From NCBI GenBank assembly GCA_003554145.1, contig PWFS01000001.1, positions 1,439 through 65,438 on the forward strand: 64,000 bases of DNA. Reading direction: 5' to 3'. The notes under the pieces were generated by a model. The model ran no database searches and was not told where the DNA came from. It worked only from the letters and a program-made list of their open reading frames with translations. Shown piece after piece: positions 7,217 to 55,110 of this stretch. The DNA comes from Halobacteroidaceae bacterium. Its GTDB lineage: Bacteria > Bacillota > Halanaerobiia > B1SED10-174. Position numbers and translations under genes: made by a program. Every line of letters begins with the position of its first letter. Within the stretch, counting starts at the first letter, position 1.

Positions 7217-7374
7217 TTGGACAGATATTTTTTCGCATCTTTGACCTGCCCTGATAGTTTCCATTTATGGAAATCTACTCCCAGAAGATAATAAAATTAG
7301 AGGAATCCGAGGGGGAAAATAGAACTTTAAGGTATGCTTAATGAAAATGATTATTGGAAAAGAAGGTGAAAAAA

Positions 7375-9192
7375 ATGGCCCAGACTCTGGCCTATATAAA
7401 TGGTGAGCACTTTTATTATGCTTTTGTGGCAGGAAGTAACGAGGTCTCCCGCTACCGGGATTTCCTCAATAAGATTAACGTTTTTCCAGTTTTTGATAGC
7501 GATACCGGTAATAATCTGGCCCAGACCTTAAACTACATTGTGGATTCGGTTCAGCCCCAAAAATCTCTGGGGGAGACAGTTCGTTCCCTGGCCAATGCTT
7601 CATTGAGTGGTGCTGTCGGAAATTCTGGTATTATACTGGCCCAGTTTATTAACGGGCTGGCCCGGGAAATTGGCGAAGTCAGTTCCCTGACTCCAGAAGA
7701 TTTTGGGGATAAGGTCCGGCGAGCAGTACCCTATGCTTACAAAGCGGTGGCTCGACCGGTGGAGGGAACCATGCTGACAGTTTTAAGGGAATGGTCGGAG
7801 GCCCTGAAAAAGGCGGCAGAAGAAACCGGGGATATTATGAAGATGTTCAAGAATTCCCTGGATCAGGCCCGGGTATCTCTGCAGGAAACAACTGATAAGA
7901 TTAAGGTCCTAAAAGAGGCCCTGGTGGTGGATGCCGGGGCCCAGGGTTTTGTTTTTTTCCTGGAGGGTGTAGCCCGCCTGGTGGAAACCGGTAATATCAG
8001 GTCCCTGCTGCGCCAGAAGGCCCCGGACCTGGCTATAGAGGAGCCCTGGGCCGGGGTAAGTGGTGAAATAAACCTGAGGTATTGTTCTGAAGCCCTGTTA
8101 AAGGGGGAAGACCTTGACCATGAAGAACTGCGGGAAAAACTGGAACCCTCTGGTGATTCTCTGATTATTGCTGGAACCGGGGAAAAGGTAAAAATCCATC
8201 TCCATACCAATAAACCGGATGAGTTTTTCTTCCAATTGAGGGATTACGGGACCATTATCCATCAGAAAGTTGATGATATGCAGCGGCAGTACCAGGTAGC
8301 TCATGAGCGACAAAATAAAATTGCTCTGATTACTGATTCTATTGCTGATATTCCCCAGGAAACAATAGACCGGCATCAGATTCACCTGATTCCCATCAAC
8401 CTGATAATTGAAGGATCTACTTTCCTGGATAAAGTATCTATCAAGCCCGATCAGATTTACTCCATACTGGATCAGGTGAAGGAATATCCCACTTCATCGC
8501 AACCCCCTCTGAAAACTGTAGAGAAAATGCTCAATTTTCTCTCTCAGTATTATGAATCAATAATTGTGGTTTCGGTATCCAAAGAACTGAGTGGAACCTG
8601 GAATGTTTTTTCCCGCGCTGCCCAACCACTGCAAAAACAGGGTAAGAAGATTTCCATTATTAATTCCCGTCTCAATTCCGGGGCCCAGGGGTTACTGGTT
8701 CAAAAAGCTGCCCAACTAATTGAAAAGGAATTGGAACACGAGGAAATTGTGGAAATTCTGGAAGAAAAAATCAAGCAAACCAGCATTTTTGTTAGTGTTG
8801 CTACTTTTAAATATATGGTCCGGGGAGGACGGGTCAGCCCGATGAAAGGGTTATTGGGTAAAGTTTTAAACCTGAAACCCATTGTTTCTCTGGACGAAGA
8901 AGGGCGGGGCACTGCATTTGCCCGCAGCTTCAGCCGGAGGGGCAGTACTAAAAAAATAGTGGACATCATAAAGGGAATTAAAGAAAAAAGTCCGGTGGAA
9001 AGTTACTGTATTGTCCATGCCGGGGCTCCAGAAAAAGCTCAATCTTATCGAGATATTTTTTCCAGGATGCTGGGGAAAGAACCGGATTATGTGGTTGAAA
9101 TATCTCCGATTGTTGCTTTAAGTGCGGGCCTGGGAGCAGTTGCAGTTGCGGTGATGACAGGAGAGGAAGAAGCTGCCCCGGTTGTTTCTTGA
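7375..9192 (+). CDS. DAK2-domain / DegV-domain fusion protein (YloV/FakA-like fatty-acid kinase-type architecture)
   Basis: N-terminal Dak2-like region; C-terminal DegV signature KIALITDSIADIP..., GSTF.D, SxxLSGT; start chosen at ATG 7375 after GAAGGTG RBS (ORF extends to 7354). Confidence 0.65.
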   Translation: MAQTLAYINGEHFYYAFVAGSNEVSRYRDFLNKINVFPVFDSDTGNNLAQTLNYIVDSVQPQKSLGETVRSLANASLSGAVGNSGIILAQFINGLAREIGEVSSLTPEDFGDKVRRAVPYAYKAVARPVEGTMLTVLREWSEALKKAAEETGDIMKMFKNSLDQARVSLQETTDKIKVLKEALVVDAGAQGFVFFLEGVARLVETGNIRSLLRQKAPDLAIEEPWAGVSGEINLRYCSEALLKGEDLDHEELREKLEPSGDSLIIAGTGEKVKIHLHTNKPDEFFFQLRDYGTIIHQKVDDMQRQYQVAHERQNKIALITDSIADIPQETIDRHQIHLIPINLIIEGSTFLDKVSIKPDQIYSILDQVKEYPTSSQPPLKTVEKMLNFLSQYYESIIVVSVSKELSGTWNVFSRAAQPLQKQGKKISIINSRLNSGAQGLLVQKAAQLIEKELEHEEIVEILEEKIKQTSIFVSVATFKYMVRGGRVSPMKGLLGKVLNLKPIVSLDEEGRGTAFARSFSRRGSTKKIVDIIKGIKEKSPVESYCIVHAGAPEKAQSYRDIFSRMLGKEPDYVVEISPIVALSAGLGAVAVAVMTGEEEAAPVVS

Positions 9193-10632: not shown

Positions 10633-10908
10633 AGCTATTTGGCCTGTTTCAGGGAATTTGAATATCTGGAGCAATATGATTAAGATGTATTCTGGGATAA
10701 GCCGATAGTTCAATTGGGGCGGAGCGATATGCAGGGAAAATGTGATGAGCAGTGGAGCAAAGAAGCTTTTTAATGTCTTTCCCGATTCCGGGAAAAAATA
10801 CAGGGGCAGGAAAAGGAATTTGCCGACAATGGGTTGCAAAGGACAATGCCTGCAGAGTGAGAATTATCACGGGAAAAAAGCAATAATTAATTATCCCCAT
10901 AAAAAATA

Positions 10909-10929
10909 ATCACCCTTTCGCAGGGTGAT
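10909..10929 (-). terminator. Terminator hairpin for minus-strand permease gene (ATCACCCT-ttcgc-AGGGTGAT) followed on minus strand by TATTTTTTAT
   Basis: Perfect 8-bp stem, 5-nt loop; U-run on minus strand. Confidence 0.45.
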
Positions 10930-10941
10930 AAGGCGCTGGAC

Positions 10942-10976
10942 AAACCCCGGGAATTTTTCTGGGGTTTGTTTTTTAT
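10942..10976 (+). terminator. Plus-strand terminator (AAACCCCGG...CTGGGGTTT + GTTTTTT)
   Basis: GC-rich stem with T-run; convergent with the minus-strand hairpin. Confidence 0.4.
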
Positions 10977-11006
10977 CCTGGAATTGGCCTGGGGCAGGCT
11001 GAGAAA

Positions 11007-12383
11007 CTAAAAATCCTCCTCCCGAATCCGGGCCAGCTGCAAAAGGCTGCGCCCCTGCTGGCGCAGGGAGTTTTCCCGCACCTGAAAATAAATCAGGCCA
11101 GCAATTATCCACAGGAGGAATAGAAGGCTGAAAATAACTCCCAGGGGTTGTGAATACAGATCTACCAGCAGGATAATAATTATTATTAATGCCAGCAGTA
11201 GACCAATTCCTGCAGAAAAATAAAGCCAGAAAATTGGAAGGCGGAAGGAACTGCTGGCAAAAGCCCGGGGAGCTCGCCTGGGAAGAACAACTGCTGCGCC
11301 AATTAAAGGTAAGAAAATAATAATTCCTCCCAGGGAGCCAAGAATAGTAAAGGTTTCCAGGAATTCTTCCCCCAGAACGATAATGGCCAGACTCGAGGCC
11401 AGATATATGATGGTCAGAAACCAGTGGGGAGTACCAAAGCGCCTGTTTACCGCCAGGAGAGATGAAGGGAAAAAACCGTCGGCAGTCATTACCAGGAGTG
11501 ATTTGGTGCCCCACATAAAACTGGCATTAAGGGTAGTAGTTATTGCAACCACTCCTCCCGCAAAAACAAAAAAGTTCAGGCCGCCCCGGCCCATAAAAAT
11601 TTCTGCGGAGGCAGTAAGGGGCTGTCCGGCACTGATTTCCCAGGGTACAGCCCCTGCAGCAACAAATACTACCAGGAGGTAAAAAACAGTAACCAGGGGA
11701 ATGGAAAACAAAAAGGCCCGGGGAATGTTCTGCCGGGGATTTTTTATCTCTCCTCCCAGTTCAACGATGGCATTGGCTCCCATGTAGGTAAAGGTTAAAA
11801 TGCTGGTGGCCAGGGCCAGTCCGTAATACCCCTGGGGCATAAAAGGTTCAAAATTATCCAGGCTGACCGTGGGAAACCCAGACCAGGTAAAATAGAAAAG
11901 AGAACTTATTAAGAGCAAAACCAGCCCCCCCTGAATAGCGGTAGCCAGGGATAACCCCAGGATATTAATCAAAAAAATCCCGGTTAAAATGGCCAGGGCT
12001 ACGGGAACGGTGGGCCAGTCAAAAATGGCCTGCAGGTAGCGGGCAGCGCTGAGGGCATAAAGGGGAAAAGCCCCTAAAAGAGCCCCTGCTATGTAGACCC
12101 ATATTCCCAGGAAGGCAGCCCTGGGGGAAAAAAGGCGGCTGGAATAACGGTAATTGCCTCCGGTTACCGGCAGGGATGCTCCCAGCATGGCCAGGAGGAG
12201 CATCAAAAAGGCGATTGGAATTACAGCCAGGGCATAGGCCAGGATTACTGAAGGGCCGGTAAATTCAATCGCCATTCCGGTTAGAACAAAAATACCGGCT
12301 CCAATTGTTTGCCCCACGGCAATGGCAATTAGGCCAGGTAAACCAAGAGTTCTTTTCAGACCAAATTCACTCTTTGAGGACAT
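11007..12383 (-). CDS. APC-superfamily amino acid permease
   Basis: 458 aa, about 12 TM segments, N-terminal GLPGLIAIAVGQTIGAGIF consensus of amino-acid permeases. Confidence 0.8.
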   Translation of the reverse strand: MSSKSEFGLKRTLGLPGLIAIAVGQTIGAGIFVLTGMAIEFTGPSVILAYALAVIPIAFLMLLLAMLGASLPVTGGNYRYSSRLFSPRAAFLGIWVYIAGALLGAFPLYALSAARYLQAIFDWPTVPVALAILTGIFLINILGLSLATAIQGGLVLLLISSLFYFTWSGFPTVSLDNFEPFMPQGYYGLALATSILTFTYMGANAIVELGGEIKNPRQNIPRAFLFSIPLVTVFYLLVVFVAAGAVPWEISAGQPLTASAEIFMGRGGLNFFVFAGGVVAITTTLNASFMWGTKSLLVMTADGFFPSSLLAVNRRFGTPHWFLTIIYLASSLAIIVLGEEFLETFTILGSLGGIIIFLPLIGAAVVLPRRAPRAFASSSFRLPIFWLYFSAGIGLLLALIIIIILLVDLYSQPLGVIFSLLFLLWIIAGLIYFQVRENSLRQQGRSLLQLARIREEDF

Positions 12384-12420
12384 GGAAGGCCTCTTTCTGG
12401 GAAGTAATTATAATAATATT

Positions 12421-12449
12421 ATAATACAATAACGGCCCGAAACAGTCAA
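12421..12449 (-). promoter_or_regulatory. Candidate sigma70 promoter for permease (TTGACT -17- TATTAT on minus strand)
   Basis: Reverse complement reads TTGACTgtttcgggccgttattgTATTAT; about 30 nt upstream of start codon at 12383. Confidence 0.4.
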
Positions 12450-12454
12450 AACAT

Positions 12455-13717
12455 TTAAAGGCGGCGGCGGGCGGCCCGGGCATGACCGGCCAGCCCTTCC
12501 CAATCAGCCAGGGTAGCTGCCGCCGGGCCAATCTGGCGCAAACCTGTTGCAGTAATCTCCAGGGTAGTGGGTAATTTGACAAAATCCAGGACATTAAGCC
12601 CTCCTGCATAACGGGCGGTGGTATTGGTGGGCAGGGTGTGATTTAAACCGCTGGTATAATCTCCAAAAACTTCGCAGGTTTGCTGACCCAGGAATAGCGA
12701 GCCAAAATTGAGGAGTTTTTCCTGGAAATAATCCTGATTTTGAACCTGCAGTTCCAGGTGTTCCGGTGCCTTTTTGTTGGCAATTTCTATTGCCTGCTCA
12801 TTATTTTCCACCAGGATTATAGCTCCGTTGCGATCCAGGCTCTGCCTGGCGATTGCCCCAGTGGGGAGATCCTGCAACTGTTTATTAACATTTTCCTTCA
12901 CTTTTTTGGCCAGGGCAGAGGAGGTAGTAATAAGGACAGCGATTGCTGCCGGGTCATGTTCGGCCTGGGCCAGGAGATCAGCGGCAATTAATTCCGGATC
13001 ACCGCTCTGGTCGGCAATAATCATAACTTCAGTGGGCCCCGCCAGGAGATCAATCCCCACCCTTCCCAGTACAATCTTTTTGGCCTGAGTTACATAGCTA
13101 TTTCCAGGTCCAACAATTTTATCCACCTGGGGTACTGTTTCCGTGCCGTAGGCCAGGGCTCCAATGGCCTGAACTCCGCCCAGGCGGTATATTTCCTGGA
13201 TACCGATTAAATCTGCAGCCGCAAGGATCGCGGGGTTAATATCTCCGGAGAAAGAAGGGGGTGAGGAAATAATGATTTTTTCAGCTCCAGCCACCTGGGC
13301 TGGGACTGCCCCCATCAGCAGGGAAGAAATAAGGGGGAAAGAACCCCCGGGGACATAGACCCCCACCCGGGAAATGGGAATGACCCGCTGCCCAGCTTTG
13401 ACCCCGGGCGTAATTTCGATCTCAAAATCCTGTATTTGTCCTAACTGTCTGCGGGCAAAAATTCGAATATTATCCGCTGCCAGCCTGCAGGCCTCGAGAA
13501 AATCGGGATCGGCCTGCTCCCGGGATTCTTTGATGGTCTGGAGGGGAACTTTCAGGGCAGCAGGACGAACTCCGTCGAATTCTTCAGTATAATCCAGAAG
13601 GGCCTGATCTCCCTTCAACTGCACCTGATCCAGAATTTCTTTTACCGTGGCTGCATCACCCTCCTCCTGATAGGAAAAAAAGGAGGGTTCAAGGTCTTTA
13701 CCGGTAATAATTTTCAT
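12455..13717 (-). CDS. hisD: Histidinol dehydrogenase
   Basis: MKIITGKDL... start; conserved HisD segments (GVYVPGG, AGPTEVMIIAD, AEHDPAA, NHTLPT); ORF extends 14 codons upstream to 13759. Confidence 0.9.
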   Translation of the reverse strand: MKIITGKDLEPSFFSYQEEGDAATVKEILDQVQLKGDQALLDYTEEFDGVRPAALKVPLQTIKESREQADPDFLEACRLAADNIRIFARRQLGQIQDFEIEITPGVKAGQRVIPISRVGVYVPGGSFPLISSLLMGAVPAQVAGAEKIIISSPPSFSGDINPAILAAADLIGIQEIYRLGGVQAIGALAYGTETVPQVDKIVGPGNSYVTQAKKIVLGRVGIDLLAGPTEVMIIADQSGDPELIAADLLAQAEHDPAAIAVLITTSSALAKKVKENVNKQLQDLPTGAIARQSLDRNGAIILVENNEQAIEIANKKAPEHLELQVQNQDYFQEKLLNFGSLFLGQQTCEVFGDYTSGLNHTLPTNTTARYAGGLNVLDFVKLPTTLEITATGLRQIGPAAATLADWEGLAGHARAARRRL

Positions 13718-14958
13718 TTTCTGTGCCTCCTTTTGAGTTCGGTCAGGACTTCCATCCAATCCACATCCTCCTGGGATAAAAGCACCAGCAGGTGGTATAG
13801 TAGATCAGCTGCCTCCCAGGTCAGGTTATCCCGATCGTCAGCCATTATTACTTCTTCACTTTCCTCCCTGATTTTTTCTCGCACTCCGGGTCCATCAAGG
13901 CTGGCGGTATAGGATTGGGGAGGAGCATTCTCCAGCCGGCTTTGGATAATATCCTGGAGGAGGGAGGGAGAGAAAGTGCGGGAACCGAAGCAGGAATATT
14001 TCTCCTGATGACAGGCTGTTCCTGATTGATCAACTGTAGCCAGTAGCGCATCACCATCGCAATCGGAACGCAGCGAAATTAACTCCTGAAAGTGCCCGGA
14101 GGTTTCTCCCTTGGTCCATAACTCCTGGCGGGAGCGGGAAAAATAGCACATTTTATTGGTCTTCAGGGTTTGAAGTAAGGATTCCCGACTGGAATAGGCC
14201 AGCATTAAAACCTGGCCATGACGATCCCTGCTTATAGTGGGAATTAAGCCCTGGTCCCAGTTAAGGGTGGCAATAAAGGCTTCTTCCAGGGATATTTTGC
14301 CCGAATAAAGGGCCATTCCCAGCTGGATTTTGATTTCCATGCGGGAGAGTTTTTGGATTTGCTCCAGGCTGGAAATACCTCCTGCTGCAGTAATTCTGCC
14401 GGGGGCCAGAACAGTAGCCCTGTTAAATAAGTCCATATCTGTTCCAGTCATGGTGCCCTCCCGGTCAATGCAGGTGACCAGAAATTCTGCTGCATATTCT
14501 TTTAATTGGGGCAGAACCTGCTCCAGGGTCATTCCCGTGCTCCGGGTCCAGCCGTGGGTTTGAACTTTCCCTTCTCGCACATCAAGGGCAATAACAATCT
14601 GTTCGGGTGCAAGGATTTTTCTTAAATCGTTCAAAAACTCTTTATTAATTCCTCCGGCTGAGAAAGCCCTGGTGCCAATGATTATTTTTTCGGCTCCCAT
14701 TTTGATTAGTTCCCGGGCTCGTTCGGGGGTCCTGATGCCGCCCCCTGCTCTGCAGTGGGCCAGTGGAAAAATCTGGGCCAGAAGCTCATTATTCTGACCC
14801 TGATCCAGGGCTGCATCCAGGTCTATTACTGCAACTTCTCCCACACGATTAAAATCCCGGGCCAGCTGCAGGGGGTTGTCGTGTTCCAGGATCTTCTCCC
14901 GGCCCTGACGCAATTGAACTGCCCGGCCATCCATCAGGTCAATAGAAGGGATCAGCAT
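13714..14958 (-). CDS. hisA-hisIE: Apparent trifunctional fusion: HisA (ProFAR isomerase) + HisI (PR-AMP cyclohydrolase) + HisE (PR-ATP pyrophosphatase)
   Basis: N-terminal MLIPSIDLMDGRAVQL...GGGIR (HisA barrel, ~235 aa), then without stop WDQGLIPTISRDRHGQVLMLAY...CHQEKYSCF (HisI), then ...YTASLDGPGVREKIREESEEV...AADLLYHLLVLL (HisE). Confidence 0.8.
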   Translation of the reverse strand: MLIPSIDLMDGRAVQLRQGREKILEHDNPLQLARDFNRVGEVAVIDLDAALDQGQNNELLAQIFPLAHCRAGGGIRTPERARELIKMGAEKIIIGTRAFSAGGINKEFLNDLRKILAPEQIVIALDVREGKVQTHGWTRSTGMTLEQVLPQLKEYAAEFLVTCIDREGTMTGTDMDLFNRATVLAPGRITAAGGISSLEQIQKLSRMEIKIQLGMALYSGKISLEEAFIATLNWDQGLIPTISRDRHGQVLMLAYSSRESLLQTLKTNKMCYFSRSRQELWTKGETSGHFQELISLRSDCDGDALLATVDQSGTACHQEKYSCFGSRTFSPSLLQDIIQSRLENAPPQSYTASLDGPGVREKIREESEEVIMADDRDNLTWEAADLLYHLLVLLSQEDVDWMEVLTELKRRHRK

Positions 14959-15707
14959 CGAACCGGCACCCCCCGGGCGGCGAGGAATTCTTTAATGGCC
15001 GGGATTGACGTATCTCCAAAATGAAGGAGGGAAGCTATCAGGACCGCGTCCGCTTTTCCGATTTCAATACCCCGGGCCAGGTGTTCCAGACTTCCTGCTC
15101 CCCCGGAAGCAATAACGGGGATGTTGACTGCTTCGGACATTTTTTGCAATAATTCCAGATCATAACCTTCTCGGGTTCCATCGCGATCAATGGAGTTTAA
15201 AAGGATCTCTCCTGCTCCCAGGGCTTCCCCTTTTCGGGCCCATTCAACGGCTTTTTCCTGGGTTGGAGTTCTTCCTCCATGACTGTAAGCGTACCAGGAA
15301 TCGTCGCAAAAAGCTGCATCAATACTCAGAACAATGCACTGGGACCCAAAAAGAGTTGCTCCCCGGGTTAAGAGTTCAGGATCGGCAAGGGCGGCAGTGC
15401 ATACAGCAACCTTATCGGCCCCTGCTTCAAGAGCCCGGCGCATATCTTCCACCGATCGAATTCCTCCTCCTACAGTCAGGGGGATAAAAATCTCCCGGGC
15501 CACTTTCTGCACCAGTTCCAAAACGGTCTGTTCTTCCCGGGGTGAAGCCCCAATATCCAGGAAAGTTAATTCATCGGCTCCTTCTTGATAATAATGCCTG
15601 GCCATTTCCACCGGATCGCCGGCTGGTCTTAATTCCTGAAACCGGGTGCCTTTAACCACCCGGTCCCGATCAACGTCCAGGCAGGGAATTATTCTTCTGG
15701 TTAACAT
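14952..15707 (-). CDS. hisF: Imidazole glycerol phosphate synthase cyclase subunit
   Basis: MLTRRIIPCLDV..., GADKV, conserved HisF motifs; ORF could start 5 codons earlier (15722). Confidence 0.9.
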   Translation of the reverse strand: MLTRRIIPCLDVDRDRVVKGTRFQELRPAGDPVEMARHYYQEGADELTFLDIGASPREEQTVLELVQKVAREIFIPLTVGGGIRSVEDMRRALEAGADKVAVCTAALADPELLTRGATLFGSQCIVLSIDAAFCDDSWYAYSHGGRTPTQEKAVEWARKGEALGAGEILLNSIDRDGTREGYDLELLQKMSEAVNIPVIASGGAGSLEHLARGIEIGKADAVLIASLLHFGDTSIPAIKEFLAARGVPVRC

Positions 15708-16326
15708 TGCTACCACCTGCACCTTCTAACCAATTATTTAATAGTTTTAGCCCCAGAGGACCGCTTTTTTCAGGATGAAATTGAACTCCCCAGATATTAC
15801 CGGATTGGATTACGGTGGGGTAGGAAATATCTCCATAGGCAGTCAACCCCAGGACCCAGTCAGCTCGATTTTTTTCCGGGGGAATATAATAACTATGCAG
15901 AAAGTAGAAAAACTGGGGATTGTCAGGTTCTGGAGTCAGAGGACATGCCTTTTGCCACCAGACCTGATTCCAGCCGATCTGGGGAACTCGCCGGACCTGG
16001 AAACGTTGTAGCAGTCCCGGGAAATAATCAAACCCCGGGATGTCGGGGGATTCCCTGCTTCCCGAAAACAGGAGCTGTAAGCCCAGGCAAATTCCCAGAT
16101 AAGGGCGGTTGTTGCCCAGCCAGGTCTGAATTGGGGAAAAGAGCTGCCTCGATTTTAGGGCCTGAATTGCTGCTCCAAAACTACCCACTCCCGGCAGAAT
16201 TAAACGGTCAACTTGCTTCAGTTGTTCGGGCCGGTTAATCAGCACCGGTTTTTCCTGCAAAAAGCGGAGAGCATTCAGGACTGAATGAAGATTTCCTGCT
16301 TCATAGTTCACCACCCCGGTTTTCAT
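15670..16326 (-). CDS. hisH: Imidazole glycerol phosphate synthase glutamine amidotransferase subunit
   Basis: MKTGVVNYEAGNLHSV..., GICLGLQLLF (catalytic Cys), QFHPEKS. Confidence 0.85.
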   Translation of the reverse strand: MKTGVVNYEAGNLHSVLNALRFLQEKPVLINRPEQLKQVDRLILPGVGSFGAAIQALKSRQLFSPIQTWLGNNRPYLGICLGLQLLFSGSRESPDIPGFDYFPGLLQRFQVRRVPQIGWNQVWWQKACPLTPEPDNPQFFYFLHSYYIPPEKNRADWVLGLTAYGDISYPTVIQSGNIWGVQFHPEKSGPLGLKLLNNWLEGAGGSNVNQKNNSLPGR

Positions 16327-16328
16327 AT

Positions 16329-16910
16329 CTAAAGGACCCCCTTGGTACTGGGAAGATGCGATTTACCGGTTAAACTGCTGGCTGCCTGCAGGGCCCGGGC
16401 AAAAGCTTTAAAGAGGGCTTCAATCTGATGGTGGTCGCTGCGTCCATACAGGATTCGCAGGTGAATTGCAGCCTGGAGGGAGCGGGACAGGCCTCCAAAA
16501 AAATCAAATATCAGATCGCAGGGAAAATCTCCAACCTGTTCTCCCCGGGGAGAAAAGTCACAGTGGAAATATGATCGTCCGGAGAGATCTACTGCGGCCA
16601 TGGCCAGGGTTTCGTCCATGGGAAAAAAGAAAAAACCTGCTCGCTGTATGCCCTTTTTATTTCCCAGCGCCTTTTGCAAGGCTTCTCCCAGGGCAATTCC
16701 CGTATCCTCTACCAGGTGATGGGGATCAACATGGAGGTCTCCCTGGAGAGAAGCTTCCAGGTTCAGACTGCCGTGACAGGCCAGGCATTCCAGCATATGG
16801 CTAAAAAAGCCCAGTTCACAATCTATATTGCTCTGCCCGGAACCATCCAGGGTGACTTTAATTTTAATCTCTGTTTCCCTGGTCTTTCTGCTTACAATTC
16901 CCGATCGCAT
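16329..16910 (-). CDS. hisB: Imidazoleglycerol-phosphate dehydratase
   Basis: RKTRETEIKIKVTLDGSG, DPHHLVEDTGIALG, HHQIEALFKAFARAL typical IGPD. Confidence 0.9.
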   Translation of the reverse strand: MRSGIVSRKTRETEIKIKVTLDGSGQSNIDCELGFFSHMLECLACHGSLNLEASLQGDLHVDPHHLVEDTGIALGEALQKALGNKKGIQRAGFFFFPMDETLAMAAVDLSGRSYFHCDFSPRGEQVGDFPCDLIFDFFGGLSRSLQAAIHLRILYGRSDHHQIEALFKAFARALQAASSLTGKSHLPSTKGVL

Positions 16911-18625
16911 TCTAAAACCTCCTCCAGTTCCATAATACTCTCTATTATTCTGTGGGCTCCTGCTTTTTGCAGGGCTTCCCGATCGGAAAGGGTATTTCCC
17001 GGGGGCATAAAACCCAGGGGAATTAAACCTGCTCTGCGGGCCGCCTCCATATCATCGGGAGTATCCCCGATATAATAACCGCGGGAACTCCCCATTTTTT
17101 CCAGGGCCAGCTCCAGTCCTGCCGGGTCAGGCTTGCCCTTTTCGGGGGGCAGATCATCCATGGTGATTATCGGGGAGAAAAAATCTTTTAATCCCAGGTG
17201 CTCCAGGGTAAAAAAAGCTTCGGACCGGGGCCTACCTGTAACAATACCAAGTTTAAATTTCCGGCTTAACTTCCCCAATAATTCGCGATTAATAAGGGGT
17301 TTTTCTTTTTGAATTAAACCATTCCAGTCCTGGCCCAGGTAAAACTCCTGGAATTTTTCAATAATCCGGGAGCGGGGAATATCAATTTTTCTCCTTTCAA
17401 GCAGGGCTGCCGTTAGATCCCAGTCATTATTAAAACCCCCCGCCCTTTTCGCTGCAGCAATTTCCTCCTGATCCGGTCTCTGTCCGCTGAAAAACTTAAC
17501 TGTGGCAGCAATGGCCTCTCGGTAAGAAGAACGGACATCGACCAGGACCCCGTCCAGATCAAATAGCAGGACTGATGGAGAGAGAACCTTCTCCAGGGCC
17601 TGTAACAACTGTTCATGGTCCTTCCGGGTGCCAATGCTGATCCGCAGGTACTCCTCCAGAGGAGGATAATTTTCCAGGGAGCGGACCCGTATATTTTCCC
17701 GGGCCAGGGCCTTTTGTACTGCGGCAGCCCCGGGTCCCACTTTAATCAGGATAAAATTGGTAGCGGTAGTACGGGTCTCAATATGCAGACGAGCCAGGGC
17801 TTTTTGTAAAAAGACTTTTTCCTGTTCCACGAACTCTTTTTCTTTTTCAATAAATTCCTGATCAGAGAGAGCCGCCCGGGCGGCAACAACTGCTGGACCA
17901 CTGAGGGGGTAGGGAGGATTAATCAGGTGCAGTTTTTCAATTATGCTGGTCGACCCAATTATATAGCCCAGGCGCAAACCGGCCAGACCGTAGGCCTTGG
18001 AAAAAGTTCGAATCAGGATCAGATTGGGAAACTCTTCCAGCAGAGGGACTGCTGAAACTCCAGAATAGTGGTGGTAGGTTTCATCAATAATAACCGGGGT
18101 TTGGGGGAAATTCTGCAGGATCCGGGTAATGGTTTCCAGGGTGATTATTTCCCCGGTAGGGCTGGCGGGATTAACCAGGATAAGGGCTGCGGGGGGTTCA
18201 GTTGATTGGGCCAATACCTGATCCAGGGGAAAGGTTAGGTCCGGCCCATACTTAATTTCTCCAGGCCGGGCCTGCCGCAGGTTTAAAAAGAGGCGGTACA
18301 TGGAATAGGTGGGGGGGGTCAGGACCACATCCTTATTTTTTTCTACCAGTGCCTCCAGAATAACCCGGATGGCTTCATCCCCGCCACAGGTTAAAATGAG
18401 ATTCTCGGGCCTGACTCCCACCTCATTAGCCAGTTCAAGATAAAGTTCATGATAATCAGGATAGGCAAATAGGGTTTCGGGTTCTAAACGGGAGAGCTCT
18501 TCCTTTACCCGGGGTGAAGGACCCCGAGGATTTTCATTCATATCCAGGCAGATCTGTTTAGAACGGGGAGTGGTGGAAACGGGGTAAGGGGATAAATTTT
18601 CCAGGGCAGTTCTTACTCGGATCAT
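16892..18625 (-). CDS. hisC: Histidinol-phosphate aminotransferase fused to C-terminal HAD-IA phosphatase domain (putative bifunctional HisC / histidinol-phosphatase)
   Basis: N-terminal class-II aminotransferase with YPDY, SKAYGLAGLRLGY (PLP-Lys); after ~350 aa continues in frame into FDLDGVLVD (DxDG motif I), GIVTGRP (motif II), K...GDTPDDMEAARRAG (motifs III/IV). Confidence 0.8.
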   Translation of the reverse strand: MIRVRTALENLSPYPVSTTPRSKQICLDMNENPRGPSPRVKEELSRLEPETLFAYPDYHELYLELANEVGVRPENLILTCGGDEAIRVILEALVEKNKDVVLTPPTYSMYRLFLNLRQARPGEIKYGPDLTFPLDQVLAQSTEPPAALILVNPASPTGEIITLETITRILQNFPQTPVIIDETYHHYSGVSAVPLLEEFPNLILIRTFSKAYGLAGLRLGYIIGSTSIIEKLHLINPPYPLSGPAVVAARAALSDQEFIEKEKEFVEQEKVFLQKALARLHIETRTTATNFILIKVGPGAAAVQKALARENIRVRSLENYPPLEEYLRISIGTRKDHEQLLQALEKVLSPSVLLFDLDGVLVDVRSSYREAIAATVKFFSGQRPDQEEIAAAKRAGGFNNDWDLTAALLERRKIDIPRSRIIEKFQEFYLGQDWNGLIQKEKPLINRELLGKLSRKFKLGIVTGRPRSEAFFTLEHLGLKDFFSPIITMDDLPPEKGKPDPAGLELALEKMGSSRGYYIGDTPDDMEAARRAGLIPLGFMPPGNTLSDREALQKAGAHRIIESIMELEEVLECDREL

Positions 18626-18626
18626 T

Positions 18627-19490
18627 TCAAATAACAACCTTTCGAAGTTCATATTCCAGGATATCCGTTGCTCCAAACTTTTTTAGTATTGGAATAATAC
18701 GGGCAGCTTCATCCCTGGGAACTGCAGCTTTTACCGCAAACCCCTCCTCCCGATGGAGGGTGGAAACAGTAGGAGAGCGCATACAGGGTAGAATTTTGAC
18801 TACTGTTTCCAGTTGCTCGCGGGGGACATTCATTTCCAGCATTACCCGGGTGCGGGCGTCCAGGATGGACTGAAAAAGGAGCTTTAGCTCTTCAATTTTT
18901 TCTTTTTTCCAGGGATCCTCCAGGGCCTGGGGGTTGGCGATAAACCTGGTAGACGAATTCAGGAGGGTAGATACAATTGACAGGTGATTTTCCTTAAGAG
19001 TCTGACCGGTGGAGGTGTTATCAATTATCATATCTGCATCTTCGGGTGGGAAAACTTCGGTGGCTCCATAGGTTCGGATCAAAACATAGTCAAAACCCTG
19101 TTCCTGCAGGAATTTTTCTGCCAGTAGTTGATACTCTGAAGCGACAACAATTCTTTTCTTTTTTAGTTCTGTCAGGGAAGAATTATAGGGGATCGCCGCT
19201 ACTATTTGCACTGGATTAAAACCCAGATTGAGTACTTCTTTTACGCCTGCTTCTGTTTCCAGGATCCAGTCCAAACCGGTGAATCCAGCATCATGACTCC
19301 CCAGTTCCACCAGAGAGGGAATATTCTGGGGTTTCATAATTTTCACCTCAATGGAACTGTCGCTGACAAAAGGACGATAACCCCGGGTTGAAAGGTTGAT
19401 CTCAATTCCAGCCTCCTCCAGCAAACGAACGACATTGTCAAAAATTCTTCCCTTGGGCAACATCAGGCGGAGCAGTGACATGGTTAACAC
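18627..19490 (-). CDS. hisG: ATP phosphoribosyltransferase, long form with C-terminal regulatory domain
   Basis: LRLMLPKGR, DAGFTGLD, IIDNTSTGQTL; about 285 aa. Confidence 0.85.
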   Translation of the reverse strand: MLTMSLLRLMLPKGRIFDNVVRLLEEAGIEINLSTRGYRPFVSDSSIEVKIMKPQNIPSLVELGSHDAGFTGLDWILETEAGVKEVLNLGFNPVQIVAAIPYNSSLTELKKKRIVVASEYQLLAEKFLQEQGFDYVLIRTYGATEVFPPEDADMIIDNTSTGQTLKENHLSIVSTLLNSSTRFIANPQALEDPWKKEKIEELKLLFQSILDARTRVMLEMNVPREQLETVVKILPCMRSPTVSTLHREEGFAVKAAVPRDEAARIIPILKKFGATDILEYELRKVVI

Positions 19491-19540
19491 CTCTTTTACT
19501 TCGCTAATTGGGTAGAGAAATAAAGGATAATACAGGACTT

Positions 19541-19575
19541 ATTATAACAAAAGTTGGAGGCAATTAAAACCCCCT
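19541..19575 (-). promoter_or_regulatory. Candidate his-operon promoter (extended -10 TGTTATAAT on minus strand)
   Basis: Reverse complement reads ...ttttgTTATAAT about 50 nt upstream of hisG start; weak -35. Confidence 0.3.
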
Positions 19576-19958
19576 TTTTTTGGTTTTACAAAAAAAATGT
19601 TAAATAGAGAGGAGGCAGGGTATCCTTCTGGTTTATTCCACAGAGAAAATACGGAAGAAAAAATGCTCTATGGGGGTTTCAGTTTCCCGAGATCACTATA
19701 TAGCTCCAGGTTAATTGGGTGCGGAACCGAAGCAGGGAAAATAATGCCTTTGCTGCAAACATGGAACCCGGATCTCCATAAATCAGAGTTTAAAAGGGAG
19801 AGGAACTGAATAACGGGCCCCTGGTGGAAAAACGGGGAAGAGGCTCACGGGGTAATAATAAAGAGGAAAAAATGGTTTAATGGGGTTTGGAAAAGGTTCA
19901 GGGCTCTTTATCAGGGGAATTATGCCTGGATAGGGGAAAAAAGAAAACTTTTATCCTG

Positions 19959-19985
19959 TTGCTTTTTTACCTATCCTGTTATAAT
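19959..19985 (+). promoter_or_regulatory. Candidate promoter for nitronate monooxygenase gene (TTGCTT-15-TATAAT)
   Basis: TTGCTT 19959-19964, TATAAT 19980-19985, 55 nt before ATG 20040. Confidence 0.3.
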
Positions 19986-20039
19986 TAAGATTACAGCTTA
20001 AGTATAGGCAAGTTTAATTATTGCTTGGGAGGAGAGCCA

Positions 20040-20981
20040 ATGGCTGGAGAATTAAAAATTGGAAAGCTTAAAATACCTATCCCTGTTATCCAGGGAGGTA
20101 TGGCAGTCCGCATTTCTACAGCTCCACTGGCTGGAGCGGTGGCTAATGAGGGCGGTGTGGGGATAATAGCCGGTACCGGCATGAGTCTCTCAGAATTAAG
20201 AGATGAAATTAGAAAAGCCCGGGAGTTAACCACGGGAATAATAGGAGTCAATGTCCTGTTTGCGGTAAATAAATTTACCCGGCTGATAAAAACAGCCATT
20301 GAAGAAAAAGTAGATTTAATTATTTCCGGGGCCGGTATTTCCCGGGACATGTATCGCTGGGGAAGAGAGGGTGGAGTGGATATTGTTCCCGTCGTTTCCA
20401 CCGGGAGGCTGGCCAGGATGGCCGAAAGATTTGGAGCTGCAGCAGTTATAGTGGAAGGCAATGAAGCGGGGGGACATCTGGGGACAGATCGACCCCTCAG
20501 GACTATCCTACCGGAGGTAATATCCACGGTAAATATCCCGGTTATTGCCGCGGGGGGAATAATGGAGGCCATTGATATTAAAGAGATGCTGGAACTGGGA
20601 GCGGATGGAGTTCAGATGGGCACCCGTTTTGCAGCCAGCGAGGAATCAAATGCTTCCCCCGAATTTAAGGATTCTTATGTCCGGGCAACCGGTGAGGATA
20701 TTGGGATAATTTCCAGCCCGGTAGGGCTCCCCGGGCGGGGCATAGTCAATAATTTTGCGCGCAGTATTGCCGGAGGTAACAAGCGGGAAATAGGGCGTTG
20801 TTATCAGTGCCTTAAACGCTGCTCCCATCAGTACTGTATTATGGAAGCTTTAAACAATGCTCACCGGGGGGGCAATAGCAGAGCGGCTTTATTCTTTTCC
20901 GGGACAGGAGTGGGGCAGATTAAAGAAATACTATCTGTTCAAGAGATTTTTAAGAATTTAAAGACTGCTTTTAAAGCTTAA
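20040..20981 (+). CDS. Nitronate monooxygenase / 2-nitropropane dioxygenase family FMN oxidoreductase (FabK-like)
   Basis: PIIQGGMA, GGVGII, EAGGH, VIAAGGI, GADGVQMGTRF motifs; GGGAGGAG RBS before ATG 20040. Confidence 0.8.
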   Translation: MAGELKIGKLKIPIPVIQGGMAVRISTAPLAGAVANEGGVGIIAGTGMSLSELRDEIRKARELTTGIIGVNVLFAVNKFTRLIKTAIEEKVDLIISGAGISRDMYRWGREGGVDIVPVVSTGRLARMAERFGAAAVIVEGNEAGGHLGTDRPLRTILPEVISTVNIPVIAAGGIMEAIDIKEMLELGADGVQMGTRFAASEESNASPEFKDSYVRATGEDIGIISSPVGLPGRGIVNNFARSIAGGNKREIGRCYQCLKRCSHQYCIMEALNNAHRGGNSRAALFFSGTGVGQIKEILSVQEIFKNLKTAFKA

Positions 20982-35583: not shown

Positions 35584-35702
35584 GTTGCGATTTAAGGACA
35601 GGGTTGATTTAATGGGAAGAAAAAACCTTTGCCCTTGGTTCAAAATTGAGGTTGCTTTTGGATTTTCCCGTAGGGCAGAAATTAAGGGGAGATGGTGCGT
35701 GG

Positions 35703-37343: not shown

Positions 37344-37360
37344 ATGGAGGTTGGGAGTTG

Positions 37361-54062: not shown

Positions 54063-54599
54063 ATGTCAGAAAATATTATCCTGTTACTTGTTGCGGTTGT
54101 AGTTGGAGGTGGTTTAATTGCTGGTATCTTATATTTTATTCTCCGTCACATGCGGGGCTCAATTAAATTATCCCTACCCCAGACAGCATTTAACCCGGGA
54201 AATAAGATTAGCGGTGAGTTTGATCTTCTCGCAAAAAAACCCATCCAGGGAAATAAACTTATCGTTAGGTTGATTGGGCAACAGGTCACCAGGCACCACC
54301 AGAATGGGAAGAGCAGGACGCGCTCCCAGGAGATTTACAGGGATGAAGTTCTTGTTGAAGAGGCTAAGGACTATCCTGCCGGATATACTGGTAAGTATAG
54401 CTTTGAAATTAACACCCCGAATACAAATGAAACAGAATTTCTAAATTCTCCTCTTGGTCAAACTCTAAATGCTGCTGTTCGATTGCTCAGTAACCGAAAC
54501 ACACGCCTCCAATGGAGGGTAGAAGCCAGGCTGGATGCCAAAGGTATTGATCTGGTAGCAGCAAAAAAAATTACCCTAAATACCAAATTTATGGGGTAA
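54063..54599 (+). CDS. Hypothetical N-terminally membrane-anchored protein
   Basis: 178-aa ORF after GGGAGATAGGG RBS; N-terminal TM IILLLVAVVVGGGLIAGILYFIL; sits at edge of AT-rich island. Confidence 0.45.
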   Translation: MSENIILLLVAVVVGGGLIAGILYFILRHMRGSIKLSLPQTAFNPGNKISGEFDLLAKKPIQGNKLIVRLIGQQVTRHHQNGKSRTRSQEIYRDEVLVEEAKDYPAGYTGKYSFEINTPNTNETEFLNSPLGQTLNAAVRLLSNRNTRLQWRVEARLDAKGIDLVAAKKITLNTKFMG

Positions 54600-55023: not shown

Positions 55024-55110
55024 TGGTGCCGAGAGCGGGATTCGAACCCGCACAGGCTCACGCCCACAGCGCCCTCAACGCTGCGTGTCTGCCAATTCCA
55101 CCATCTCGGC
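55024..55110 (-). tRNA. tRNA-Leu (anticodon GAG), class II with long variable arm
   Basis: Reverse complement GCCGAGATGGTGGAATTGGCAGACACGCAGCGTTGAGGGCGCTGTGGGCGTGAGCCTGTGCGGGTTCGAATCCCGCTCTCGGCACCA: 7-bp acceptor stem, anticodon stem CAGCG/CGCTG with loop TTGAGGG (anticodon GAG), T-loop GGTTCGAATCC, encoded CCA. Confidence 0.85.

What the first reader, a model, noticed from the sequence alone, without database searches (positions are those of the whole stretch)
16892..18625. HisC fused in-frame to a HAD-IA phosphatase domain: candidate bifunctional aminotransferase/histidinol-phosphatase
The hisC ORF continues for about 230 aa beyond a complete class-II aminotransferase into a domain with all four HAD motifs (FDLDGVLVD, GIVTGRP, K, GDTPDD). 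No PHP-type hisK or IMPase-type hisN is present in the operon. Consecutive pathway steps (IAP to histidinol-P to histidinol) fused in one polypeptide would be a neat solution to the missing phosphatase. I do not recall it as a standard arrangement.
Basis: partly seen in the sequence, partly recalled or inferred. Interest (0 to 1): 0.55.

Follow-up and report, generated by a model that had tools for sequence, protein, structure and literature searches.

The report
HisC fused to histidinol-phosphate phosphatase
One gene in a histidine operon encodes a histidinol-phosphate aminotransferase joined to a phosphatase of the recently characterised archaeal histidinol-phosphatase family, so two consecutive steps sit on one protein; the fusion is real, common in uncultured microbes and absent from the papers I could search.

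Summary
On the minus strand, 16892-18625 is one uninterrupted 577-aa ORF: a HisC aminotransferase (aa 1-348), a 3-residue linker and a HAD phosphatase (aa 352-577) with all four catalytic motifs. It is not an artefact. The identical protein occurs in independent assemblies. At least 120 full-length homologues (36-60% identity) share a gap-free junction and intact catalytic residues in both domains.

The HAD domain belongs to the TIGR01548 family. That family most probably contains the two archaeal histidinol-phosphate phosphatases tested in vitro, nmHisN and toHisN. The domain carries their substrate fingerprint in the Y-R-K-D variant. In other genomes the same HAD protein is a separate gene between hisC and hisB. 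Two such operons otherwise match this one, and their hisC stop overlaps the HAD start (ATGA). No PHP, IMPase or second HAD protein lies in the 64-kb window.

Activity is inferred, not shown. The components are known, but reviews of his-gene fusions do not list a hisC fusion, and databases name these proteins only "histidinol-phosphate transaminase". Among the 150 closest 50%-identity representatives of the HAD domain, 95 are fused. Verdict: new variant of a known kind, moderate interest.

The parts
16892..18625 (-). Whole fused gene hisC-HAD (577 aa plus stop)
   Evidence: One uninterrupted ORF. The identical protein is found in independent assemblies. There are 120 full-length homologues.
17582..18625 (-). 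HisC domain, aa 1-348 (histidinol-phosphate aminotransferase, step 7)
   Evidence: TIGR01141 hisC scores 283.6 bits, above the 276.55 cut-off. Pfam Aminotran_1_2 E 1.8e-47. The top 40 Foldseek PDB hits of the AF2 model are HisC structures or HisC-family aminotransferases, TMt 0.84-0.91.
17996..17998 (-). Codon of Lys210, the PLP-binding lysine (S-K motif)
   Evidence: S209 and K210 are invariant in 121/121 fused sequences, as are R218, D181, Y184 and R328.
17573..17581 (-). Linker Ser-Pro-Ser between the last HisC helix and the first HAD strand
   Evidence: Alignment of 121 sequences shows at most 12 gapped sequences at any linker column. In the AF2 model, helix 334-347 leads directly to strand 352-355.
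16895..17572 (-). HAD phosphatase domain, aa 352-577 (predicted histidinol-phosphate phosphatase, step 8)
   Evidence: TIGR01548 scores 139.3 bits. The AF2 model has pLDDT 95.2 with a Rossmannoid core and a helical C1 cap. The closest solved relative by sequence is 6iah, Tt82 of Thermococcus thioreducens.
17552..17560 (-). HAD motif I, D356-L-D358 (nucleophile and general acid/base)
   Evidence: Both Asp are invariant in 121/121 sequences. Coordinates verified.
17423..17524 (-). Cap segment carrying the substrate fingerprint: Y368, R369, I372, I389, K393, D401
   Evidence: These correspond to Y24, D25, I28, I52, K56 and E64 of nmHisN (PMC10804674). Conservation in the fused family: Y 117, R 102, I 108, I 109, K 115 and D 117 of 121. 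They lie in cap helices 1-3 of the model.
17237..17239 (-). HAD motif II, Thr463
   Evidence: T in 120/121 sequences.
17132..17134 (-). HAD motif III, Lys498
   Evidence: K in 119/121 sequences.
17051..17068 (-). HAD motif IV, G520-D-T-P-D-D525 (Mg2+ ligands)
   Evidence: G520, D521 and D525 are invariant in 121/121 sequences.
18627..19490 (-). hisG (long form, with HisG_C), directly upstream; its stop is 1 nt before the hisC start
   Evidence: Pfam HisG plus HisG_C; sequence.
16329..16910 (-). hisB, imidazoleglycerol-phosphate dehydratase only (no phosphatase domain); overlaps the end of hisC-HAD by 19 nt
   Evidence: Pfam IGPD covers 33-174 of 193 aa. NF002111 monofunctional HisB scores 237 bits, above its 231 cut-off.
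15670..16326 (-). hisH
   Evidence: Pfam GATase.
14952..15722 (-). hisF
   Evidence: Pfam His_biosynth E 7e-78.
13714..14958 (-). hisA-hisI-hisE fusion (414 aa), a second unusual fusion in the same operon
   Evidence: Pfam His_biosynth plus PRA-CH plus PRA-PH. At least 120 homologous clusters have the same three domains.
12455..13759 (-). hisD, last gene of the operon
   Evidence: Pfam Histidinol_dh E 1.3e-154.

Best explanation
The gene encodes a bifunctional enzyme for steps 7 and 8 of histidine biosynthesis.

The N-terminal PLP domain (HisC, Lys210) transaminates imidazole-acetol phosphate with glutamate to give L-histidinol phosphate. The C-terminal Mg2+-dependent HAD domain then hydrolyses histidinol phosphate to histidinol. 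In that domain Asp356 is the nucleophile and Asp358 the acid/base. Thr463 and Lys498 hold the phosphate, and Asp521 and Asp525 hold the metal. A single helical cap supplies Tyr368, Arg369, Lys393 and Asp401 to recognise the substrate. hisD, in the same operon, oxidises the histidinol.

The HAD domain is an orthologue of the stand-alone nmHisN/toHisN-type phosphatase gene that sits between hisC and hisB in other genomes. The fusion arose by loss of the hisC stop codon. In split operons that stop overlaps the phosphatase start (ATGA).

The fusion fixes a 1:1 ratio of the two enzymes and keeps them together. The irreversible hydrolysis would pull the reversible transamination forward.

Shown here: domain make-up, conservation, homology and gene context. 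Inferred: substrate specificity, activity and any kinetic benefit.
For: (a) HisC identity. TIGR01141 scores above its equivalog cut-off. The fold matches solved HisC structures. PLP-site residues are invariant.

(b) An active HAD phosphatase. All four motifs are invariant or nearly so in 121 fused sequences. The model has pLDDT 95.

(c) Family. TIGR01548 is the best hit by more than 80 bits over any other named phosphatase. All 55 of 55 fused members hit both TIGR01141 and TIGR01548. The best stand-alone relatives, at 45-54% identity, are named TIGR01548 family, including Bathyarchaeota. The best PDB sequence match is the Thermococcus phosphatase Tt82. Kinateder et al. 2024 showed that Nmar_1556 is a specific histidinol-phosphate phosphatase homologous to toHisN, with related clusters in Thaum-/Bathyarchaeota, Euryarchaeota, Thermococcales and delta-Proteobacteria.

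(d) Fingerprint. Y, I, I, K and D are present with the same relative spacings (+1, +4; -4, +8) as Y24/D25/I28 and I52/K56/E64. Arg at position 25 matches the paper's cluster II.

(e) Context. Of 80 genome loci found with the HAD domain, 12 are fused to HisC and 35 are separate genes inside his clusters, mostly in the order hisC-HAD-hisB.

(f) Split orthologues. L083 and L084 have the operon hisG-hisC-HAD-hisB-hisH-hisF-hisA~IE-hisD, with an ATGA overlap at the hisC/HAD boundary. Their HAD proteins are 51-52% identical to this domain.

(g) No other candidate. hisB here is dehydratase only, and no PHP, IMPase or other HAD protein lies in the window.

(h) Genetics. A transposon insertion in the HAD hydrolase HVO_0431 makes Haloferax volcanii a histidine auxotroph (PMC8305020). 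I could not verify that HVO_0431 belongs to this family.
Against: No fused protein and no Arg-25-type member has been assayed. Kinateder et al. themselves call the assignment of the Arg-25 class less reliable.

The TIGR01548 score is just under the curated cut-off: 139.3 bits for the domain alone and 136 bits in the full protein, against 140.2.

I could not obtain the Nmar_1556 or TON_0887 sequences. The fingerprint mapping therefore rests on residue spacing and on the alignment to 6iah, not on a direct alignment.

Only 64 kb of the genome could be inspected, so another histidinol phosphatase elsewhere is not excluded.

Tt82 is, from my memory of its publication, described as having broad substrate specificity.
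Confidence: 0.85

Rival explanations
1. The HAD domain is a phosphatase for a different substrate, such as phosphoglycolate, a sugar phosphate, pyrophosphate or phosphoserine. On this view it is fused to HisC for a reason other than consecutive catalysis, and the true histidinol phosphatase is encoded elsewhere.
For: The Foldseek top hits are generic HAD-IA phosphatases of mixed or unknown specificity. The Arg-25 variant of the fingerprint is untested. The TIGR01548 score is marginally below its cut-off. The rest of the genome was not seen.
Against: Scores on PGP, PpaX, beta-PGM and nucleotidase models are 20-59 bits, against cut-offs of 140-415. The domain or gene is embedded in his clusters in 47 of 80 sampled genomes across many phyla. 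The cap residues shown to matter for histidinol-phosphate turnover are conserved. nmHisN hydrolysed none of nine other phosphoesters.
Confidence: 0.09
2. The fusion is an artefact: a sequencing frameshift or a missed stop codon joins two adjacent genes, hisC and a HAD gene.
For: In related operons the two genes are separate and overlap by 4 nt, so one base error could join them.
Against: The identical 586-aa product is called in at least three independent sources or assemblies. A 577-aa form occurs in relatives at 57-60% identity on 57-66 kb contigs. The junction aligns with almost no gaps across 121 sequences. Of the 150 closest 50%-identity representatives, 95 are fused. There is no homopolymer at the junction.
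Confidence: 0.01
3. The HAD domain is catalytically inactive and acts as a regulatory or oligomerisation module of HisC.
For: None specific. It is a generic possibility for an appended domain.
Against: Every catalytic residue of the HAD machinery is invariant or nearly invariant across 121 sequences at 36-60% identity. The stand-alone orthologues are ordinary full-length enzymes.
Confidence: 0.02

Closest known systems
nmHisN (Nmar_1556) of Nitrosopumilus maritimus, a HAD-type histidinol-phosphate phosphatase (Kinateder et al. 2024, PMC10804674)
   Same: Both are HAD phosphatases with one large helical cap inserted after motif I. Both are encoded next to hisC and hisB. The fingerprint residues Tyr, Lys and an acidic residue, plus two accessory aliphatic residues, keep the same relative spacing. 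nmHisN is Mg2+-dependent and specific for histidinol phosphate in vitro.
   Different: nmHisN is a stand-alone monomer, whereas this domain is the C-terminal half of a HisC fusion. Position 25 is Arg here and Asp in nmHisN. The cap is shorter here: six helices of at least 4 residues in the model, against nine reported. No direct sequence alignment could be made.
toHisN (TON_0887, Thermococcus onnurineus) and its solved relative Tt82 (PDB 6iah, Thermococcus thioreducens)
   Same: Same HAD subfamily. 6iah is the best PDB sequence hit (E 1.3e-16, 30% identity), aligning SY(D/R)EA and (R/K)xxGxFxxD. toHisN has proven histidinol-phosphate phosphatase activity according to PMC10804674.
   Different: These are stand-alone proteins with a Y-D-R-D fingerprint, from hyperthermophilic archaea. 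That Tt82 is an orthologue of toHisN is my inference from its fingerprint and taxon.
Euryarchaeal 'cluster II' and delta-proteobacterial homologues of nmHisN (PMC10804674); probably also HVO_0431 of Haloferax volcanii (PMC8305020)
   Same: They share the Y-R-K-D fingerprint with Arg at position 25. Halobacterial loci L041 and L054 in my scan carry it. Insertion in HVO_0431 causes histidine auxotrophy.
   Different: They are stand-alone and often unlinked to his genes. None has been assayed in vitro. Membership of HVO_0431 in this family was not verified here.
Bifunctional HisB (HisNB) of E. coli and other gamma-proteobacteria
   Same: A HAD-superfamily histidinol-phosphate phosphatase fused to another histidine-pathway enzyme and encoded in the his operon.
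   Different: It belongs to a different HAD subfamily with small caps: TIGR01656 scores only 25.6 bits here, against a cut-off of 84. The phosphatase is N-terminal and fused to the dehydratase, so steps 8 and 6 are joined and are not consecutive. It evolved independently from GmhB (PMC9798254, abstract).
Other his-gene fusions (hisIE, HIS4 = hisIE-hisD, HIS7 = hisH-hisF)
   Same: Fusion of pathway neighbours within or derived from his operons.
   Different: Reviews list fusions involving hisD, N, B, H, F, I and E only. hisC and hisA are not among them.

Membership tests
HisC, histidinol-phosphate aminotransferase (TIGR01141) | Score above the curated equivalog cut-off | tested here: met
   283.6 bits against 276.55. 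The CobD model reaches only 186.8 against 290.55. All 55 of 55 fused homologues hit TIGR01141.
HisC, histidinol-phosphate aminotransferase (TIGR01141) | PLP-binding lysine and the conserved Asp/Tyr/Arg of fold-type I aminotransferases | tested here: met
   K210, D181, Y184, R218 and R328 are invariant in 121/121 sequences. The PLP-O3' Asn position is Ser155 here; in the family it is N in 82 and S in 39 of 121.
HisC, histidinol-phosphate aminotransferase (TIGR01141) | HisC fold | tested here: met
   AF2 model pLDDT 92. The top 40 PDB matches are HisC structures or HisC-family aminotransferases, with TMt 0.84-0.91 and rmsd about 2 A for most.
HAD superfamily phosphatase | Motifs I (DxD), II (T/S), III (K/R) and IV (GDxxxD or DD) | tested here: met
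   D356/D358, T463, K498 and G520-D521...D525, each invariant or present in at least 119 of 121 sequences.
HAD superfamily phosphatase | Rossmannoid core with a cap inserted after motif I (subfamily IA / C1 cap) | tested here: met
   The AF2 model (pLDDT 95.2) has strand 7-10, then helices between residues 20 and 111, then strand 113-117. Foldseek gives 262 PDB matches at E<=0.001, and the 50 listed are almost all HAD-family proteins.
nmHisN/toHisN-type histidinol-phosphate phosphatase (NCBIfam TIGR01548) | Score at or above the TIGR01548 cut-off | tested here: inconclusive
   139.3 bits (domain alone) and 136 bits (whole protein), against a cut-off of 140.2. The next-best named family scores 58.6 bits. 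That nmHisN itself is a TIGR01548 member is inferred from the named Bathyarchaeota relatives and from PMC10804674. It was not tested directly.
nmHisN/toHisN-type histidinol-phosphate phosphatase (NCBIfam TIGR01548) | Fingerprint Y24-D25-K56-E64 (toHisN: Y-D-R-D) plus accessory I28 and I52 | tested here: inconclusive
   Y368, K393, D401, I372 and I389 are present. Position 25 is Arg369, not Asp. This matches the paper's cluster II and delta-proteobacterial class, which the authors rate likely but less reliable. The mapping was made through spacing and 6iah.
nmHisN/toHisN-type histidinol-phosphate phosphatase (NCBIfam TIGR01548) | Gene located in a his cluster beside hisC and hisB | tested here: met
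   Here it is fused to hisC and followed by hisB. In 80 sampled genomes, 12 are fused and 35 are his-linked. Split operons L083 and L084 have the same order.
nmHisN/toHisN-type histidinol-phosphate phosphatase (NCBIfam TIGR01548) | Specific Mg2+-dependent hydrolysis of L-histidinol phosphate | not testable with these tools
   This needs an enzyme assay or complementation.
HisB-N type (DDDD / HAD-IIIA) histidinol phosphatase (TIGR01656) | Score above the domain cut-off; small caps | tested here: not met
   25.6 bits against 84.15. Only the motif III-IV region matches. The model has a large helical cap.
Phosphoglycolate phosphatase / PpaX / beta-phosphoglucomutase-type HAD-IA enzymes | Score above the equivalog cut-offs | tested here: not met
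   PGP_bact 56.8 against 180. PpaX 58.6 against 218. bPGM 21.2 against 189.
PHP-type (HisK/HisJ) or IMPase-type (HisN) histidinol phosphatase | Presence of such a gene in the operon or window | tested here: not met
   No PHP or Inositol_P Pfam hit in any of the 52 ORFs of at least 90 aa in the window. The rest of the genome could not be tested.

The most novel reading that the evidence does not exclude
The fusion is more than co-expression. The HisC dimer with two appended phosphatase domains passes histidinol phosphate directly from the PLP site to the HAD site, by proximity or electrostatic channelling. Together with the HisA-HisI-HisE fusion in the same operon, and the HisG-HisC-HAD triple fusions in DPANN archaea, it would reflect a consolidated histidine metabolon in these lineages. 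A weaker corollary is much more probable: the fusion serves as Rosetta-stone proof that the whole Y-R-K-D class of TIGR01548 proteins is the missing histidinol phosphatase of Acidobacteriota, Aminicenantes, KSB1, Melainabacteria, Planctomycetota, CPR, DPANN and haloarchaea.
Probability: 0.15. Interest if true: 0.65.

Novelty: new variant of a known kind. Interest (0 to 1): 0.5.

Why it matters
Histidinol-phosphate phosphatase is the one non-conserved step of histidine biosynthesis. It was the most frequent low-confidence step in automated amino-acid pathway annotation, in 28% of 148 prototrophs in GapMind (PMC7311316).

A covalent fusion of HisC to a TIGR01548 HAD domain is strong genomic evidence for function. 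So is the same gene lying between hisC and hisB in dozens of genomes. Together they indicate that the Arg-25 class of this family, left uncertain by its discoverers, is a histidinol phosphatase. That would fill the gap in many bacterial and archaeal phyla known mostly from metagenomes. It would also correct hundreds of database entries now named only 'histidinol-phosphate transaminase'.

The finding adds hisC (and hisA) to the list of his genes known to fuse. It also offers a natural two-step enzyme on which to test whether coupling an irreversible phosphatase to a reversible transaminase gives a kinetic advantage.

Tried and rejected
- Direct alignment with Nmar_1556 or TON_0887 was not possible. 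The sequences are not held, the paper has no text supplement, and no returned protein was named Nitrosopumilus.
It kept 600 stretches and 229 relatives and returned 80 loci. It did not return the window's own genome, so the distribution is a sample, not a census.
- The afdb50 fold library was unavailable, so no UniProt-annotated structural neighbours could be listed.
- I could not read model coordinates. The distance and orientation between the PLP and HAD sites, and the placement of fingerprint residues around the active site, were therefore not measured. Only their position in cap helices 1-3 was seen.
- A neighbour-joining tree of 306 HAD domains needs at least 16 fused/split changes. HisC-domain identity to the query is no higher in fused than in split loci. 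This suggests several fusion or fission events. The tree has no support values, and some 'stand-alone' metagenomic proteins may be fragments, so I make no firm claim.
- The promoter/terminator scan of 10800-20100 gave promoter-like sites near shuffle expectation and terminator-like sites that were not interpretable. Rfam found no leader, T-box or riboswitch upstream of hisG, only one tRNA in the window.
- Literature searches found no description of the fusion. They covered HisC-phosphatase fusion, TIGR01548, Tt82, bifunctional aminotransferase/phosphatase, and 'fused to' with hisC. The library lacks most subscription journals, so absence is not proof.
- The organism was not identified. Only the assembly accession GCA_003550965.1 is known, and named relatives of the operon proteins include KSB1 and Aminicenantales.
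Full report
OBSERVATION

The feature lies on the minus strand. One ORF runs from 18676 (TTG) to the stop at 16892-16894. That start is the most plausible. It lies 1 nt after the hisG stop codon and about 12 nt after a GAAAGG. The closest homologues are also 577 aa, and the family consensus starts MIxP.

Pfam places Aminotran_1_2 at aa 23-344 (E 1.8e-47) and HAD_2/Hydrolase at aa 352-534 (E 2.5e-19 and 8e-22). The surrounding genes are all on the minus strand and tightly packed or overlapping. They are hisG, hisC-HAD, hisB (dehydratase only, 193 aa), hisH, hisF, a hisA-hisI-hisE fusion, and hisD.

IS THE FUSION REAL?

Yes. The identical protein is called on contigs from NCBI assembly GCA_003550965.1, from an independent Logan assembly of run SRR490134, and from JGI data. 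A search of 5.8 billion protein clusters returned at least 120 full-length homologues with both Pfam domains, at 36-60% identity and 88-100% coverage.

In an alignment of 121 such sequences the junction has almost no gaps: at most 12 sequences are gapped at any linker column. The last HisC helix is followed by 3-5 residues and then the first HAD strand, xLLFDxDGVLVD. The junction DNA has no homopolymer run. Both domains are under purifying selection for catalysis. The PLP lysine K210, together with D181, Y184, R218 and R328, is invariant. So are HAD residues D356, D358, G520, D521 and D525, while T463 and K498 are present in at least 119 of 121 sequences.

AlphaFold2 gives a confident two-domain model (pLDDT 92, pTM 0.79), with helix 334-347 running straight into strand 352-355. 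Its best 40 PDB matches are HisC structures or HisC-family aminotransferases that cover only the N-terminal 330-370 columns. No listed solved chain covers both domains.

WHAT IS THE HAD DOMAIN?

NCBIfam assigns it to TIGR01548 ('HAD-SF-IA-hyp1'). The score is 139.3 bits, a hair under the 140.2 cut-off. Every functionally named HAD model scores far below its own threshold: PpaX 58.6 against 218, phosphoglycolate phosphatase 56.8 against 180, and the E. coli-type histidinol-phosphatase domain 25.6 against 84. All 55 fused homologues tested hit both TIGR01141 (hisC) and TIGR01548. Searching with the domain alone finds stand-alone proteins of 220-250 aa at 45-54% identity. Their sources name them 'TIGR01548 family HAD-type hydrolase', from Bathyarchaeota, KSB1, Aminicenantales and Acidobacteriota.

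The best match among solved structures is 6iah, phosphatase Tt82 of Thermococcus thioreducens (E 1.3e-16). It also has the highest sequence identity, 30%, among the Foldseek hits. The domain model (pLDDT 95.2) shows a Rossmannoid core with a single helical cap between motifs I and II.

LINK TO CHARACTERISED ENZYMES

Kinateder, Mayer, Nazet and Sterner (Protein Sci 2024, PMC10804674) studied Nmar_1556 of Nitrosopumilus maritimus. It is a stand-alone HAD protein encoded between hisC and hisB. They showed that it is a specific Mg2+-dependent histidinol-phosphate phosphatase (kcat 0.79 s-1, KM 73 uM) that hydrolysed none of nine other phosphoesters. It is homologous to the earlier characterised toHisN of Thermococcus onnurineus.

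Their alanine scan defined a fingerprint in the cap: Y24, D25, K56 and E64, with accessory I28 and I52. toHisN has Y-D-R-D. A large euryarchaeal cluster and two small delta-proteobacterial clusters have Y-R-K-D. The authors call those clusters likely phosphatases, but less reliably so because of Arg at position 25.

In the window protein the corresponding residues are Y368, R369, I372, I389, K393 and D401. Their internal spacings are the same (+1 and +4 from Tyr; -4 and +8 from Lys). The alignment to 6iah pairs SYREA with SYDEA, and KRAGGFNND with RRKGSFGDD. Across the 121 fused sequences these positions are Y 117, R 102, I 108, I 109, K 115 (plus 6 R) and D 117. They fall in cap helices 1-3 of the model.

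The domain is therefore a member of this phosphatase family, of the Arg-25 class. I could not align it directly with Nmar_1556 because that sequence was not obtainable. This is the main gap in the chain of homology.

GENOMIC CONTEXT

A scan of species-representative genomes with an alignment of the HAD domain returned 80 loci. I annotated the six-frame ORFs of these loci with the window's own His proteins.

- In 12 loci the HAD domain is fused to HisC. These are Iainarchaeum, Gastranaerophilales, Aminicenantes, Myxococcota, Brocadiaceae, Microgenomates and unclassified bacterial MAGs.
- In 35 loci it is a separate gene inside a his cluster. Most are Acidobacteriota with the order hisIE-hisG-hisD-hisC-HAD-hisB-hisH-hisF-hisA. 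Others come from an archaeon, Methanosarcinales, Atribacterota, Spirochaetota and Anaerolineae.
- In 33 loci it is unlinked, and about ten of these are not true family members.

The Y-R-I-I-K-D pattern dominates in all three classes.

The closest stand-alone relatives, P0127 and P0167, are 51-52% identical to the domain over about 220 residues. They lie in operons that otherwise match the window: hisG, hisC (353-354 aa), HAD (224 aa), hisB, hisH, hisF, hisA~IE, hisD. In both, the hisC stop overlaps the HAD start as ATGA. The window gene is thus the fused form of a conserved, translationally coupled gene pair. In a KSB1 genome the HAD gene sits between hisG and hisB.

HOW COMMON IS IT?

An exhaustive HMMER search of 1.84 billion 50%-identity representatives with the HAD domain found 328 proteins at E<=1e-30. 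The lengths of the best 150 break down as follows.

| Length | Count | Reading |
|---|---|---|
| 500 aa or more, HAD domain C-terminal in nearly all | 95 | fused (4 of these exceed 700 aa) |
| 300-499 aa | 13 | probably truncated fusions |
| 260-299 aa | 6 | unclear |
| under 260 aa | 36 | stand-alone |

The proteins over 700 aa may correspond to the forms listed that also carry a HisG domain. Those are eight proteins of 707-782 aa; the five that carry a name are from Woesearchaeota, Diapherotrites or unclassified archaea.

A rough neighbour-joining tree of the HAD domains needs at least 16 changes between fused and split states. The HisC domain of the query is no closer to HisC of fused loci than to HisC of split loci. 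This suggests repeated fusion or fission, but I do not regard it as established.

OTHER PHOSPHATASE CANDIDATES

hisB is monofunctional. Pfam scans of all 52 ORFs of at least 90 aa in the window found no PHP, inositol-monophosphatase or additional HAD protein. The rest of the genome could not be examined.

MECHANISM

The best-supported reading, at confidence about 0.85, has these parts:
- The N-terminal domain makes histidinol phosphate from imidazole-acetol phosphate and glutamate.
- The C-terminal domain hydrolyses histidinol phosphate to histidinol by the standard HAD aspartyl-phosphate mechanism.
- The helical cap provides substrate recognition.
- HisD then completes the pathway.

The fusion guarantees equimolar synthesis and co-localisation. 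It also couples a freely reversible transamination to an irreversible step. Direct channelling is possible but purely speculative here.

Rivals, with their confidences:
- A different phosphatase specificity: 0.09.
- An inactive domain: 0.02.
- An assembly artefact: 0.01.

COMPARISON AND NOVELTY

Both halves belong to known families. A HAD-type histidinol phosphatase fused to another his enzyme is known from E. coli HisB. That case differs in three ways. It uses a different HAD subfamily, the fusion partner is the dehydratase, and the two steps joined are not consecutive.

Reviews of his-gene fusions list hisD, N, B, H, F, I and E only (PMC1963479, PMC10138114). The paper that discovered nmHisN does not mention any HisC fusion. 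Five further full-text searches found none. Databases label these proteins simply 'histidinol-phosphate transaminase'.

I therefore rate this a new variant of a known kind. Its value is practical. It is Rosetta-stone evidence that the Arg-25 class of TIGR01548 proteins is the missing histidinol phosphatase in many phyla. One independent hint points the same way: histidine auxotrophy of a Haloferax mutant in the HAD hydrolase HVO_0431 (PMC8305020). I did not verify that HVO_0431 belongs to this family. Histidinol phosphatase was the commonest low-confidence step in GapMind's amino-acid pathway annotation (PMC7311316). Interest: 0.5.

Noticed in passing
window 13714-14958 (minus): hisA, hisI and hisE are fused into one 414-aa protein (His_biosynth plus PRA-CH plus PRA-PH), joining consecutive steps 2, 3 and 4. 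At least 120 homologous clusters of about 414 aa share all three domains, and sources name them only 'bifunctional HisIE'. They sit on the same contigs as the HisC-HAD fusions, judged by matching contig lengths, and also occur in loci L007, L022, L083 and L084. Reviews of his fusions do not list hisA.
   Followed up: partly
proteins P0024, P0029, P0047, P0062, P0063, P0065, P0097, P0100; locus L003 3029-5365: Triple fusions of 707-782 aa carry a HisG domain (PF01634) in front of HisC-HAD. The five that carry a name are from Woesearchaeota, Diapherotrites or unclassified archaea. Steps 1, 7 and 8 would then sit on one polypeptide.
   Followed up: no
loci L083 5001-5004 and L084 1817-1820: In the split versions of the same operon the hisC stop and the HAD start overlap as ATGA. 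The HAD proteins there are 51-52% identical to the window's domain, but the adjacent HisC is only 28% identical. The two halves therefore have discordant histories.
   Followed up: partly
window 18161-18163 (Ser155 of the HisC domain): The usual NPNNPTG motif of HisC reads NPASPTG. The Asn that normally hydrogen-bonds PLP O3' is Ser here, and in 39 of 121 fused homologues.
   Followed up: partly
window 11007-12383 (minus): An amino-acid permease gene (AA_permease_2) lies 72 nt downstream of hisD on the same strand. A sigma-70-like site sits at 12449-12421 and a bidirectional terminator-like hairpin at 10909-10971. It may or may not be co-transcribed with the his operon.
   Followed up: no
window 7354-9192 (plus): A 612-aa protein combines a Dak2 domain and a FakA-like middle domain with a full DegV (FakB-like) domain (E 4.5e-66). 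It looks like a fusion of the fatty-acid kinase ATP-binding part with its fatty-acid-binding partner.
   Followed up: no
window 35646-37343, 39957-41621, 58974-60665 (plus): Three large ORFs (565, 554 and 563 aa) have no significant Pfam match. Two of them flank the DNA polymerase I gene (37358-39940).
   Followed up: no
window 54063-54599 (plus): A 178-aa ORF has weak arrestin-like Pfam hits (Arrestin_C E 1e-4, below the gathering score), next to the tRNA-Leu(GAG) gene at 55024-55110.
   Followed up: no
locus L085 1-416 and 4129-6895 (KSB1, GCA_016931935.1): In this KSB1 genome the TIGR01548 gene lies between hisG and hisB with no hisC beside it. An inositol-monophosphatase-family gene lies about 4 kb upstream. 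That genome could hold two candidate histidinol phosphatases.
   Followed up: no
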